DNA of 63,997 bases, filler included, from Basidiobolus ranarum (GCA_040143965.1; 3 parts of 3 records of this genome joined end to end with filler, not necessarily neighbours in it); one strand, 5' to 3'. Counted from the whole stretch's first letter, positions 26,351 to 30,150 are shown. The notes: generated from the sequence alone by a model not told the origin. Translations and numbers: made by a program.

Positions 26351-28244
26351 TTATAGGAAATCAAACAGATATTTCTCGATCTCAAAACGTACGGTTCGAG
26401 ACACTTTCTTAACATATTCATAACTGACATTTGTCTTGCACTTCATATTATCCAAAGCATCCATACTTGTGGTGCGTATAAGCAGACGTAAGGTGATGAG
26501 CGAAGCAATCTACAAAATCAAACCAATCATTAAAAAACAGGCGAGAGTAGCAACACTGAAGATAGAGGACTAACTTGTGAGTGGATATCTACAGTGCTAT
26601 CTAACGGCCTTTCTAAGATACTAAAGAATATGGCCAGCATTCTTTCTACCGGAAATGCCTTTGGACCCACGAGTTGCTGGCGAGTCTATAGACCAGAGGG
26701 TCAGAATACAACTACAGTCTCGAAATGACCTTGAACAAAGTTACCTTTTTTCCAGTTTTATCAGCTCCTTGTTTACGTCCTCGTTTTTTTCCATTTGCTT
26801 CGCTACCGCGTGTGAAGAATCGCTGATCTAGCCTTGGTGGATTGTATGATGCCAAGTAGGATGCTATGAGTAAGAATCTGGAAAAATAAGGAAGTTCACA
26901 ATCGCCAAGATCTACATGAAGTACAGTTAGCTATACATGATAAATGCTCAATGAAAGAGATCCACTTTTACTGCATACTTTTCGACGTCAATTCCGAGAT
27001 ATCAAGTTCATTTTCCGCACTTTTTCTCTCCCATTCGGCGCTAGAGATCTCTCTGAGATATAACTTATCTGCCGCTGCAGTTAAAAATGGTTGAACCAAT
27101 CTAAACAGCTTGGTGGTCTCCGTCCTTTGAGCTAGTAAAGGATGAGATTCAATTAAATGTCAGGTTTACAGACAACTCAGAGTGAATGTAGATGTACCTT
27201 GATTTTCCAACACGGGTTGTATATATTTGGGAAATATCATGGCAACTAGATGGCGCATCTCATTTAAATCTTTACAATTTCTATGGAATACGTCGTAGAG
27301 AACATCCACAAATCCCAGGAAGAAAGTGATGTCCTCGTCTTCAGGACAATCCATTGCTATAATGTTCAAGATATCATGTGGGATTAAGTTAAAGAATCAT
27401 ATAGGTTGTCAACATTCCAGCATCAGCTTAAATAAGTAAAAAAGGATATCTTTTGTGTACTCTGGAAAGCGTATAACTAACGGCTCGAAACATCCACTCT
27501 TGCTGCGAAATTTCTCCCATACTACAGAGCTTACCATTATAACACAGATATTTTGTTTTGTCTATTTTGGCCGATAATTCTAAATCTTTAATGGATTTGC
27601 TTCCCGAGACATGAAAATCCAGACTTCACCTACCAGCTCTGACAATCTTAACAAGGCAGGTAGTACTGTGCCAGACATATCTCTCAGTCGCTCAGCTTTA
27701 TCCAAGATCTGAACCAGGATAAGGTCTCAATAATAGTGCGAAGAATAAATCATAGAAAATGCCTACCAAATAACGGGTTTCTAAAGGATTATTATATTGG
27801 CAAACCTGGCCCAATTGAATGAGGAACTCGTTGATGGAGTCACATCGAGCATGACCTTTAAACTTATTCTCAAAACTAGGTATAGTACCAGAGAGTTGGT
27901 TCAAAGCGTGCTCAAACAGTAATCTAGGTGTATAACATTCCACACAATTTAGGAAAGCGTAGTTTGTTTTTGGTAACATTTCGTGAAATAATGTCTTTAG
28001 TATAGAGGTTTTTCCAGAGGCTTGATGACCATATACAAATATAGAAGGAACTGTGACATCTGTGGGCTAATAGACATATATATAAAGAGGATCATTAATA
28101 CTTGAAACAGGGAAATAGAACAATTCATAGGAATATAACGGCAATTTATACCTTCCCAAGTAATACTAGTAATTGACGAATCTGTTTTGAACGACCGGGG
28201 AAAGCCTTGCACAATTCAGTCACTTTATCTTCTTGTTCTAACAT
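26351..28244 (-). CDS. ORC5: Origin recognition complex subunit 5
   Basis: [23 protein letters not shown] (Walker A), [72 protein letters not shown]. Multi-exon. Confidence 0.93.
27378..27449 (-). other. U12-type AT-AC intron in ORC5
   Basis: 5' ATATCCTTT, branch TTCTTTAAC about 11 nt from the 3' end, terminal CCCAC. Removal joins PEYTK-D-DILNII in frame; retention gives a TGA stop. Confidence 0.92.
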
Positions 28245-28865
28245 TGTGTTTAATGGAGGGGGAAATTATCGCTGCTTCTGCGACTGTAAATCATTTAGTT
28301 CATCTCGACTGTTTGTCAGCTACAATCCAAACAATTGGAGAAATCACTCAAATCAAAACAAACAACATGTTTATTAAAAACGTTAATTCAAACCCAAAAC
28401 ACAAAAAGGTATAACTTATGCAAATATTATGGCTTGATAACATCTTTGATGTCAATGAATATTCTAGCCCTAACCTTTAAATCAAACTAGATTCTTGTAC
28501 TATTGCACGCGTAATATTGAGTTAATTCCACTGATTTCAATGATAATTACTTCAAATTAGAAATTTGCCATTTGAATGCAAAAAACAACACCCTAGTAAT
28601 GTTATAATATTTGTCGAGAAATAGTGTCATTTCGAAAAATTAGTGAAACCAATCATTAAATTATCTATTTCTATACGCGATTTCAGTATTACAAGGGCAG
28701 GAACATCAGGGGTCTGATGAAAAAAAAAAGAATTCGATCTGCTAGTGAAAAAAATATGCAAGGCTTACTGTGTCCAATCAATGCCGAAAATCAGTTCAGG
28801 GGGAACCTGCGCATTTGAAGGGATAGAATAATATAAAAGTCTATCTATCAGAGTGTAAGTCTCTC

Positions 28866-29129
28866 AGAACACTAGCAAAGAATCGCGATTCGAAGCATCA
28901 CTCACTGAAAGGAAGTTTTTCTTGCCTTTGAACTTGCTTTGGGGAAAGTCCTCGGACCTGTGGTAGAAAGTACCGTCTATAATTGATCATCTGTTTGCTT
29001 GGTTTGACTGGCGTAGATGGAACTATTCCGGAGTCGTAAGTCAAACTGCAAATGGCCGTTCGTCATAGCACAGTAATGCGATTGTGGTTAACAACCATAA
29101 CACAACGGGGCTCACTCTTGCAGTGTTCT
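28866..29129 (+). ncRNA. NME1: RNase MRP RNA
   Basis: CR-I GGGAAAGTCCTCG pairs with CR-V ACAACGGGGCTCA (P4). P8 hairpin ggta-GAAAG-tacc has the MRP-specific GARAR loop. P1 agaacactagcaaaga/tcttgcagtgttct. TATA-like aatataaaag at ~28830; T5 at ~29135. Confidence 0.92.
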
Positions 29130-29278
29130 CACCATTTTTCTAATTATTTTCCTCCTTTTCATGCCGTTCAGTAATGGATTAGGGGTGAGATTGAGGAGGT
29201 AGTTGTCAAGTGGGTTTCCTGCTTATCTCTCTGGTAGCAAAAGGTATGTGTAGAAGTCCAATTATTGATATGTTTCAC

Positions 29279-29354
29279 TGGAATGATGCTATTTGAATTT
29301 CTTCAACTGAATACAAAATGTGGTTTCATTAACCGAGCTTTTTAACCCTGACCT
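29279..29354 (+). ncRNA. SNR47: Box C/D snoRNA snR47/SNORD36, copy 1
   Basis: C box ATGATGc, D' CTGA (29307), D CTGA (29348). Guides ttgaatttcttca (LSU UGAAGAAAUUCAA) and cgagctttttaac (SSU GUUAAAAAGCUCG) sit in the D+5 register of yeast snR47 (25S Am2220, 18S Am619). Confidence 0.9.
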
Positions 29355-29496
29355 TTCACATTACCCTTTCAACCAATTTACTCTCGAGTAACCATTTCTA
29401 ACGAACTATTTCTTTCACCAGGCCTGTTTACAACTACACATCTCGTATGGCAGTTATATATGGTAAGCATTTCACTTAATTTCATAGAGTCATTGC

Positions 29497-29572
29497 GGGA
29501 AAGATGCTATTTGAATTTCTTCAACTGAATATAAAATGTGGTTTCATTAACCGAGCTTTTTAACCCTGACCC
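29497..29572 (+). ncRNA. SNR47: Box C/D snoRNA snR47/SNORD36, copy 2
   Basis: Near-identical to copy 1 with both guides intact. C box variant AAGATGC; terminal ggg/ccc stem. Confidence 0.82.
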
Positions 29573-29667
29573 AATACGCATGACATAACACAAACTCTCT
29601 CTTTAAAGTCACACATACTCATTACATTATTTTAAAGGTTTTTGTAGTACTATCCGGAGAAATGAAA

Positions 29668-29760
29668 TCGAATGATGAACTAATTAATCAAAAGGCTTAA
29701 CCATTGAGGTGATATGTCACTTGTGATGTATCACCAAAGATACTTGATAGTTCTGACACT
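29668..29760 (+). ncRNA. Possible third (orphan) C/D-box RNA
   Basis: ATGATGA at 29672, CTGA at 29753, 13-bp internal hairpin 29708-29735. No in-register rRNA guide recognised. Confidence 0.3.
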
Positions 29761-29771
29761 TTCATCTTTTT

Positions 29772-29817
29772 TGCAAAGAGTGGTCTCTTTAACTGGGTTC
29801 GATTCCCAGATTTGCAT
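29772..29817 (+). ncRNA. Mini tRNA-like element (acceptor stem + T-arm, no anticodon arm)
   Basis: TGCAAA...TTTGCA acceptor-like stem, AGTGGT D-loop-like motif, perfect T-arm CTGGG-TTCGATT-CCCAG. Confidence 0.5.
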
Positions 29818-30150
29818 ATAAATTTTCAACAAAAAACCCTCCAAACCCGCAGTTAGATGTGACAAAAATTGGTCTCATAAAGTGAACATGTAAAATCTAG
29901 GCTAACTCTTAAAAGAGATGTCGCCGTAGATAACTCAAATGAATAGATAGACTTGAAGGAATTTTATTTAATAAATTGTTGACTCCTAGTCTGAGGAGAA
30001 TTTATATACATCAAAAGCCAATCTTGTATTTTCCCTTTAGTCCGGTCGTACCCGTAACAATCTAGTAGAAAAAGGGGTGGTTGAAATATTCGAATTGAAT
30101 AAGAACAGTATATAGGGTAAGATAGAGGCCGGTACGTTGATGAAGTACAC

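What the first reader, a model, noticed from the sequence alone, without database searches (positions are those of the whole stretch)
28830..29820. Compact non-coding RNA operon: RNase MRP RNA apparently heading a spliced snoRNA host transcript
Seen: an RNase MRP RNA (28866-29129) is followed only ~115 nt later by a GTATGT donor. Two introns then each carry an snR47/SNORD36 copy, followed by a possible third C/D RNA and a tRNA-like fold, all on one strand with no ORF. Known: MRP cleaves pre-rRNA and snR47 methylates it; in budding yeast NME1 lies just upstream of a different snoRNA (snR66). Inference: the spacer is short for an independent promoter, so MRP RNA may be exon 1 of a polycistronic rRNA-biogenesis precursor needing both splicing and endonucleolytic release. 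Alternative: MRP is a separate Pol III unit (TATA ~-32, T5 at ~29135) and the host gene has its own small promoter (ttaggggt at ~29179).
Basis: partly seen in the sequence, partly recalled or inferred. Interest (0 to 1): 0.8.

Follow-up and report, generated by a model that had tools for sequence, protein, structure and literature searches.

The report
RNase MRP RNA beside snoRNA host
A fungal gene for the RNA of the rRNA-cutting enzyme RNase MRP sits directly in front of a small spliced non-coding gene whose introns carry rRNA-methylation guide RNAs, and the same arrangement recurs in a very different organism, so the linkage looks functional although a shared transcript is not shown.

Summary
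Rfam finds a full-length RNase MRP RNA (28867-29127, 121.6 bits) and two SNORD36/snR47 copies (29278-29356, 29496-29574), each inside an intron-like GT...branch...AG frame. These are the only 3 Rfam hits in the 64-kb window. A third C/D RNA (29662-29767) is real. The 'tRNA-like fold' is only a T-arm look-alike: ARAGORN and Rfam find no tRNA.

By protein identity the organism is Basidiobolus ranarum.

New evidence comes from a metagenome scan with an MRP motif, which gave 41 loci. Two related GC-rich contigs (L019, L028) carry the same order on one strand: MRP, T-run, spacer, 5' splice site, intronic SNORD36, exon, intronic homologue of the third C/D RNA. Their flanking protein genes differ from the window's. 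The block is therefore conserved as a unit.

Whether MRP is exon 1 of one precursor could not be tested, because no RNA reads or genome were available. A TATA box at about -30 and a T-run after MRP in both lineages favour a separate MRP transcript. An internal T5 in MRP, the missing TATA in L019 and the conserved linkage keep co-transcription alive.

My odds are 0.45 for linked but separate units and 0.33 for one Pol II precursor. I rate it a new variant of a known kind, of moderate interest.

The parts
28832..28839 (+). TATA-like box (TATAAAAG), 27-34 nt upstream of the MRP 5' end
   Evidence: Read. A TATAWA at -40 to -23 occurs at 3.2% of window positions by chance.
28866..29129 (+). RNase MRP RNA gene, full length, with conserved CR-I and CR-V. 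It contains an internal T5 at 28916-28920.
   Evidence: RF00030 at 28867-29127, 121.6 bits, E 1.5e-33. The 8-bp P1 helix is read. The internal T5 is listed.
29135..29159 (+). T-rich zone after MRP: T5 at 29135-29139, T4 at 29147-29150 and T4 at 29156-29159. A possible Pol III stop or 3'-end signal.
   Evidence: A T5 starting within 20 nt occurs at 3.3% of window positions. A T6 (L019) and a T5 (L028) lie 15 nt after MRP.
29132..29213 (+). Long imperfect hairpin inside the 114-nt spacer (CCTCC/GGAGG core). A possible processing signal, or part of the host gene's promoter or first exon.
   Evidence: Fold of 29128-29244: -35.2 kcal/mol, z = -2.78, and 2 of 200 shuffles fold as well. The L019 and L028 spacers show nothing comparable (z -0.30 to +1.35).
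29244..29421 (+). Intron 1 of the host gene: GTATGT donor, TTCTAAC branch site at 29396-29402, CAG acceptor.
   Evidence: Two verified introns of the kinesin gene in this window use GTAAGN donors, branch-like TTCAAC or ACTAAA, and TAG acceptors.
29278..29356 (+). SNORD36/snR47 copy 1, with C box ATGATGC and both guide elements intact
   Evidence: RF00049, 62.8 bits, full model.
29422..29462 (+). Exon 2 of the host gene (41 nt, non-coding)
   Evidence: Bounded by the AG at 29420-21 and the GTAAGC at 29463. No long frame crosses it.
29463..29637 (+). Intron 2: GTAAGC donor and AG at 29636-37, which is immediately followed by GT at 29638
29496..29574 (+). SNORD36/snR47 copy 2. Its C box reads AAGATGC, with A in place of the usual U.
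   Evidence: RF00049, 61.6 bits. It is 73 of 79 identical to copy 1.
29662..29767 (+). Third C/D snoRNA ('snoX'): C box ATGATGA at 29672, D box CTGA at 29752, 6-bp terminal stem, internal hairpin, and a conserved guide AAAGGCTTAAC(C)A before a degenerate D' box. Its target is unknown.
   Evidence: A covariance model built only from L019 and L028 gives this as the top hit of the whole window: 16.5 bits, rough E 0.054. No Rfam family matches it at E up to 10.
29772..29816 (+). T-arm-like hairpin (29793-29809) with a possible outer stem. It is not a tRNA. It may instead hold a branch site (CTTTAAC 29787-93) and acceptor (AG 29808-09) of a third intron. An alternative is TTCAAC at 29825-30 with AG at 29851-52.
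   Evidence: ARAGORN finds 0 tRNAs. Rfam gives no tRNA. Fold z = -1.6.

Best explanation
This is a conserved block of rRNA-biogenesis RNA genes made of two adjacent units on one strand.

Unit 1 is a functional RNase MRP RNA gene. It is made as its own short transcript, started about 30 nt after a TATA box and ended in the T-rich zone just past its 3' end.

Unit 2 is a small non-coding spliced host gene. It starts inside the 114-nt spacer, so its first exon is under about 105 nt. Its introns release two snR47/SNORD36 guides and a third C/D snoRNA through splicing and exonucleolytic trimming. From recalled knowledge of snR47, the guides target 18S-A619 and 25S-A2220 in yeast numbering.

The tight linkage is kept because the host gene depends on the MRP gene's upstream regulatory region or open chromatin, so the units are co-regulated rather than co-transcribed.

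Shown here: the RNA genes, the splice-site frames, and the conservation of order. Inferred: the transcript ends, the polymerases, and the reason for the linkage.
For: - Gene identities come from Rfam.
- The TATA box lies at -34 to -27, and a T5 lies 5 nt after the 3' end, followed by two T4 runs. The joint chance of a TATAWA box and a T5 so placed is about 0.2% of window positions.
- The same design, a T-run of at least 4 within 40 nt after MRP, occurs in 23 of 41 metagenome MRP loci. This includes a group with clear TATA boxes at -30.
- It also includes L019 (T6) and L028 (T5), in contigs of 66% and 56% G+C. There the 48 nt after MRP are 47 of 48 identical.
- Both lineages have an AT-rich or TATA-like patch between the T-run and the first donor: TAATTATTTT in the window, TTTTAAAA in L019 and TTTTTAATA in L028.
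- The 109 nt before the L019/L028 donor are 86% identical, against 55-71% for intron flanks. That fits a promoter plus first exon.
- The snoRNAs themselves contain T5 runs (29339, 29557), so the downstream unit must be transcribed by Pol II.
- The order MRP, SNORD36, snoX is conserved while the flanking genes differ. The window has AAA_16 and RRM genes. L019 has Abhydrolase_3 and CID genes.
Against: - No transcript data could be obtained, so neither a start site in the spacer nor termination at the T-run is shown.
- The MRP gene has an internal T5 (28916-28920) in the same kind of context as the 3' T5. T5 therefore cannot be an efficient stop in this organism.
- L019 and L028 have no TATA at -30 of MRP. 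Instead they have E-box and CRE-like motifs upstream, which looks more like Pol II.
- Yeast NME1 is occupied by Pol II.
- Deep conservation of same-strand order at under 200 nt spacing, without flanking synteny, is what polycistronic snoRNA clusters show (passage of PMC5824354).
- The spacer has no canonical TATAAA.
Confidence: 0.45

Rival explanations
1. One RNA polymerase II precursor. Transcription starts at the MRP 5' end and runs through the spacer into the host-gene introns and exons. MRP RNA is the 5' exon-like part and is released by cleavage in the spacer, for example by an RNase III-type cut in the 29132-29213 hairpin followed by 3' trimming. The rest is spliced, and the snoRNAs are trimmed out of the introns.
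For: - The order and orientation MRP, spacer, 5' splice site, SNORD36 intron and snoX intron are conserved in L019 and L028, which have unrelated flanking genes.
- The window spacer folds into an unusually stable hairpin: z = -2.78, with 2 of 200 shuffles as stable.
- An internal T5 in MRP argues against Pol III.
- There is no TATA at -30 in L019 or L028, and Pol II-type motifs lie upstream.
- Yeast NME1 and the adjacent snR66 are occupied by Pol II and depend on Mediator. They lie on the same strand.
- The whole spacer except a 28-nt patch is conserved between L019 and L028 at 86-98%.
Against: - A T-run directly after MRP is conserved in both lineages, and it is the standard Pol III design seen in 23 of 41 MRP loci.
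- The hairpin is not found in L019 or L028 (z -0.30 to +1.35, with no compensatory changes).
- The downstream cleavage product would be uncapped, which fits poorly with well-kept splice sites.
- No transcript evidence exists either way.
Confidence: 0.33
2. Chance neighbours. MRP and the snoRNA host gene are unrelated units that merely happen to be adjacent in a compact genome.
For: - Only 2 of 41 metagenome MRP loci carry SNORD36 downstream. That is 2 of the 32 that have at least 600 nt of downstream sequence.
- A generic C/D scan found 1 sense against 5 antisense candidates in 35.6 kb downstream of the 41 loci.
Against: - The same two snoRNA families follow MRP in the same order and orientation in a genome of 56-66% G+C as in this window (36% G+C over 28001-30000), with different flanking genes.
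- The model built from the foreign snoX picks the window's snoX as the best hit in 128 kb of search space.
Confidence: 0.1
3. Dual use of one promoter. Pol III makes MRP RNA. Pol II starts at or near the same TATA box and makes a longer spliced host transcript whose first exon contains the MRP sequence but does not mature into MRP RNA.
For: - It would reconcile the TATA box and T-run with the conserved linkage and the lack of a canonical TATA in the spacer.
Against:
- It requires Pol II to ignore the signals used by Pol III, and the reverse.
Confidence: 0.08

Closest known systems
S. cerevisiae NME1-SNR66 neighbourhood
   Same: The RNase MRP RNA gene lies immediately upstream of a C/D snoRNA gene on the same strand (gene list in PMC9731477). 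Both are occupied by Pol II (10.1101/352906).
   Different: The yeast partner is snR66, which is not intronic and not SNORD36/snR47. No Rfam snR66 hit occurs here at E up to 10. Here the partner is a spliced multi-intron host gene. In the 3 papers that mention both genes I found no statement on co-transcription.
Non-coding spliced polycistronic snoRNA host genes of fungi
   Same: C/D snoRNAs sit one per intron in transcripts without coding potential, and cluster order is conserved over long times (abstract of PMC5033589; passages of PMC5824354).
   Different: None of the passages read mentions MRP RNA as part of, or next to, such a cluster. 'MRP' occurs 0 times in PMC5824354.
Intron-embedded RNase P RNA of insects and crustaceans
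   Same: A catalytic RNA of the P/MRP family lost independent Pol III signals and depends on a Pol II host gene (abstract of PMC4287351).
   Different: There the RNA is RNase P RNA, it is intronic, and the host gene codes for protein. Here MRP RNA precedes the first intron and keeps a TATA box and a T-run. In Drosophila, MRP RNA itself is reported as Pol III-regulated (section heading only).
Canonical Pol III MRP RNA genes (mammals; Ostreococcus)
   Same: An upstream TATA box at about -30 and a T-stretch at the 3' end. For Ostreococcus the T-stretch and the lack of a cap were taken as signs of Pol III (passage of PMC7671301).
   Different: Those genes stand alone in intergenic regions. Here a spliced snoRNA host gene follows within 115 nt, and the gene carries an internal T5.

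Membership tests
RNase MRP RNA (RF00030) | Score at or above the Rfam gathering threshold over the full model | tested here: met
   121.6 bits against a threshold of 50, model positions 1-266.
RNase MRP RNA (RF00030) | Conserved CR-I (GAAAGUCC...GGAC), the GARAR loop, CR-V (ACnnnAnGGGGCUnA) and a closing P1 helix | tested here: met
   The alignment shows GGGGAAAGUCCUCGGAC, GUAGAAAGUAC and ACACAACGGGGCUCA. The 8-bp P1 helix pairs 28866-28873 with 29122-29129.
RNase MRP RNA (RF00030) | Association with Pop proteins and cleavage of pre-rRNA | not testable with these tools
   This needs biochemistry.
SNORD36 / snR47 (RF00049) | Score above gathering, C and D boxes, and both conserved guide elements | tested here: met
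   62.8 and 61.6 bits against a threshold of 30. GAAUUUCUUCAaCUGA and CGAGCUUUUUAACCCUGA are present in both copies. Copy 2 has a variant C box, AAGAUGC.
SNORD36 / snR47 (RF00049) | Guide complementarity to this organism's own rRNA | not tested
   No rRNA of the organism was available. The window holds none and no genome is held.
Intronic snoRNA in a non-coding host gene | snoRNA framed by a donor, a branch site and an acceptor, with no coding frame | tested here: met
   Donors at 29244 and 29463, a branch site at 29396-29402, and acceptors at 29421 and 29637. No + strand frame exceeds 58 aa. The same frames flank the homologues in L019 and L028.
Intronic snoRNA in a non-coding host gene | Spliced transcript observed | not testable with these tools
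   No reads could be obtained.
   T5, T4 and T4 lie at 29135-29159, with an AT-rich TATA-like patch in the spacer. A T6 or T5 is conserved in L019 and L028. Whether these signals act is unknown.
tRNA or tRNA-like element | Cloverleaf recognised by ARAGORN or Rfam RF00005 | tested here: not met
   0 tRNAs and no RF00005 hit. Only a T-arm-like hairpin is present.

The most novel reading that the evidence does not exclude
RNase MRP RNA is the capped 5' part of an ancient Pol II 'rRNA-biogenesis operon'. One precursor yields the MRP ribozyme by cleavage in the spacer. After splicing it also yields snR47/SNORD36 and a second C/D guide. The unit has been kept intact from Basidiobolus to a distant GC-rich, fungal-like lineage. 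The yeast NME1-snR66 pair would be its reduced remnant.
Probability: 0.3. Interest if true: 0.8.

Novelty: new variant of a known kind. Interest (0 to 1): 0.55.

Why it matters
How MRP RNA is transcribed differs between lineages: Pol III in animals and plants, Pol II in budding yeast. How that switch happened is not understood. A conserved block in which MRP RNA is welded to a Pol II spliced snoRNA host gene would be a plausible intermediate. It would also couple production of the pre-rRNA cleavage ribozyme to production of rRNA methylation guides. It offers a concrete, testable locus, and a simple genome-survey criterion: RF00030 followed within 1 kb on the same strand by RF00049.

Tried and rejected
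- **Earlier scan notes.** Three look-ups returned nothing.
- **Taxon of L019/L028.** The esterase fragment gave only 31-56% hits to unnamed or generically named proteins. The CID exons were too short to use, so the taxon stays unknown. Short introns with CTGAC or CTAAC branch sites look fungal, but that is an impression only.
- **Conserved spacer hairpin.** The window hairpin (z = -2.78) has no counterpart in L019 or L028, so I rejected it as a conserved feature.
- **Generic C/D scan downstream of all 41 MRP loci.** It found 1 sense against 5 antisense candidates, so there is no enrichment. The scan is insensitive, and it missed the SNORD36 copies themselves.
- **Target of snoX.** No rRNA was at hand and no Rfam family matched.
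- **Literature.** Ten searches were allowed and seven were used. I found no description of MRP RNA linked to a snoRNA host gene. PMC1183490 (Piccinelli et al. 2005) is not held. Supplements were closed and may hold locus maps that bear on this.
- **Trypanosome MRP in snoRNA clusters.** This was a recalled idea, and the passages read do not state it.

Full report
**Observation**

A gathering-threshold Rfam scan of the whole 63,997-base window gives exactly three hits, all on the + strand and all in the flagged interval:
- RNase_MRP at 28867-29127 (121.6 bits, full model).
- SNORD36 at 29278-29356 (62.8 bits).
- SNORD36 at 29496-29574 (61.6 bits).

The MRP alignment shows the conserved CR-I, GARAR and CR-V elements. 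An 8-bp P1 helix closes the RNA at 28866-29129.

Both SNORD36 copies keep the two guide elements of the family. They are 73 of 79 identical to each other, while the surrounding intron sequence has diverged. This fits a tandem duplication of a snoRNA-plus-intron unit with selection on the snoRNA. Copy 2 has a variant C box, AAGATGC.

Each copy is framed in the same way:
- A donor lies 33-34 nt upstream (GTATGT at 29244; GTAAGC at 29463).
- An AG lies 65 or 63 nt downstream (29420-21; 29636-37).
- Intron 1 has a TTCTAAC branch site 20 nt before its AG.

Two verified introns of the kinesin gene in this window use similar signals. No stop-to-stop frame above 58 aa lies on the + strand here.

A third C/D RNA occupies 29662-29767. 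It has C box ATGATGA, D box CTGA, a 6-bp terminal stem and an internal hairpin.

The 'tRNA-like fold' is not a tRNA. ARAGORN finds none in the window and Rfam reports none. What is there is a T-arm look-alike at 29793-29809 whose stability is unremarkable (z = -1.6). It may simply overlap the branch site and acceptor of a third intron.

**Setting**

A kinesin encoded in the window is 100% identical over the 260 residues queried to an NCBI protein of Basidiobolus ranarum. The RNA block fills the gap between two minus-strand genes:
- An AAA-ATPase gene. Pfam gives AAA_16 at 31 bits, just under its cut-off. It looks ORC5-like by eye, which is a recalled label.
- A two-RRM gene. It looks like U1A/U2B'' by eye, also a recalled label.

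**What could not be done**

The decisive test is whether reads join MRP to the host-gene exons.

**Comparative evidence**

I scanned the metagenome collection with a motif for the MRP CR-I/P8 region and obtained 41 loci. Rfam confirmed MRP RNA in all 41:
- 35 score at or above the gathering threshold.
- 2 are full-length but just below it (L028 at 49.0 bits and L019 at 43.8 bits).
- 4 are partial matches (L001, L005, L013, L020).

Only two loci, L019 and L028, also carry SNORD36. They are related to each other (86% mean column identity) and GC-rich (66% and 56%). In both, SNORD36 lies downstream of MRP on the same strand. That is 2 of 41 loci, or 2 of the 32 with at least 600 nt of downstream sequence.

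Reading them shows the window's architecture again:
- MRP RNA.
- A T6 or T5 run 15 nt later.
- A spacer of about 180 nt.
- A GGTAAGC or GGTATGC donor.
- SNORD36 inside an intron with a GCTAAC branch site.
- A short non-coding exon.
- A second donor.
- A C/D RNA with the guide AAAGGCTTAAACCA, a degenerate D' box and an internal hairpin.

That last RNA resembles the window's third C/D RNA. A covariance model built only from the two metagenome copies returns the window's 29662-29767 as the best hit of the whole window on both strands. The score is 16.5 bits with a rough E of 0.054. That is marginal on its own, but the hit falls exactly where synteny predicts.

The flanking protein genes differ. 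L019 has Abhydrolase_3 and CID-domain genes. So the RNA block is conserved as a unit and not as part of general synteny.

The taxon of L019 and L028 could not be established. Their short introns with CTGAC or CTAAC branch sites look fungal.

**One transcript or two?**

*For separate units:*
- The window's MRP gene has a TATA box at -34 to -27.
- A T5 starts 5 nt after its 3' end, followed by two T4 runs within 25 nt.
- A T5 so placed occurs at 3.3% of window positions, and the TATA plus T5 combination at about 0.2%.
- The design 'P1, a few C-rich bases, T-run' is seen in 23 of 41 metagenome MRP loci, including a group with obvious TATA boxes.
- In L019 and L028 the T-run sits in a 48-nt block that is 47 of 48 identical.
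- Both lineages have an AT-rich, TATA-like patch between the T-run and the donor.
- The 109 nt before the L019/L028 donor are 86% identical, against 55-71% for intron flanks and 39% for exon 2, which carries an 84-nt indel. That would fit a promoter plus first exon.

*For one precursor:*
- The MRP gene itself contains a T5 (28916-28920), so T5 cannot be an efficient stop here.
- L019 and L028 lack a TATA at -30 and show E-box and CRE-like motifs upstream.
- Yeast NME1 and its same-strand neighbour snR66 are occupied by Pol II and depend on Mediator (passage of 10.1101/352906; gene list of PMC9731477).
- The window spacer folds into a long hairpin with z = -2.78, and 2 of 200 shuffles fold as well. 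It could be an RNase III-type processing site.
- Deep conservation of order at this spacing is what single polycistronic snoRNA transcripts show in fungi (passages of PMC5824354).

*Against the hairpin argument:* L019 and L028 show no comparable structure and no compensatory changes.

Pol III read-through into the snoRNAs is excluded, because each SNORD36 contains a T5 in its guide.

**Verdict on mechanism**

I commit to 'linked but separately transcribed units that share regulation' at 0.45. One Pol II precursor stands at 0.33, chance adjacency at 0.10, and a dual-use promoter at 0.08.

**Comparison with what is known**

- The nearest precedent is the yeast NME1-snR66 neighbourhood. Its partner is a different, non-intronic snoRNA, and no snR66 match occurs here.
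- Non-coding spliced snoRNA host genes are well known in fungi (abstract of PMC5033589; PMC5824354). In the passages I read, none includes or abuts MRP RNA, and the word MRP does not occur in PMC5824354.
- A P/MRP-family RNA that depends on a Pol II host gene is known for insect RNase P RNA, which is intronic (abstract of PMC4287351).
- Stand-alone MRP genes with T-stretch terminators are the norm elsewhere, for example in Ostreococcus (passage of PMC7671301).
- My seven literature searches found no description of an MRP, SNORD36 host-gene block. Supplements were closed, and Piccinelli et al. 2005 is not held, so I cannot exclude that it has been noted.

**Novelty and score**

This is a new variant of a known kind. 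Its interest is moderate (0.55). It would rise to about 0.8 if co-transcription or wide phylogenetic conservation were shown.

Noticed in passing
L009, L010, L030, L033, L041 and L018 (metagenome MRP loci), the first 200 nt after MRP: In one clade of MRP genes the 3' end is followed at once by a conserved CTTCGGGGT(A/G)(T/C)G, which is donor-like (GTATGT or GTGCGT). There is no T-run within 40 nt except a TTTT at position 2 in L018. Conserved blocks follow (GCTGCTGGGnACG, then a T5-T8 run plus GAGCT at about +125 to +165, then GTGCAAnTC). It could be a 3' extension, a second RNA, or a splice donor. No AG acceptor precedes the conserved block. No Rfam family matches in L041 at E up to 0.1.
   Followed up: partly
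L040, the 45 nt upstream of MRP (minus strand, 1682-1726): A T-arm-like GCTGGTTCGACTCCAGC and an acceptor-like tail end 8 nt before the MRP 5' end. This hints at a tRNA-like leader, but ARAGORN and Rfam call no tRNA there.
   Followed up: partly
window 28916-28920: There is a T5 run inside the MRP RNA coding sequence, in the P3 region. That is unusual for a gene read by Pol III.
   Followed up: partly
window 29636-29639: The AG of intron 2 is followed directly by GT (AG|GTTTTT). This is a juxtaposed acceptor and donor. It could be a zero-length exon or recursive splice site ahead of the third snoRNA. Alternatively, intron 2 may carry two snoRNAs.
   Followed up: no
L019 4740-4900: The region upstream of the GC-rich MRP gene holds two CACGTGGCC E-box motifs, a palindromic TGACGTCA, three TTTCTGCCGCG repeats and a T10 run followed by CAG. 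These are promoter-like elements shared with a divergent esterase gene.
   Followed up: no
L031 1538-1678 (minus strand): A metazoan-type SRP RNA (cut off by the contig end) overlaps the 5' end of the MRP RNA gene, upstream on the same strand. This suggests clustering of small Pol III genes in that animal-like contig.
   Followed up: no
L019 6121-6330 and L028 about 1110-1250: Downstream of the snoX intron, two short blocks stay conserved between L019 and L028 (around ATGTA..GTTGCAC.AATAC and CAATCACGTCCACAG) within otherwise 54% identical sequence. They could be a further small RNA or exon signals.
   Followed up: no
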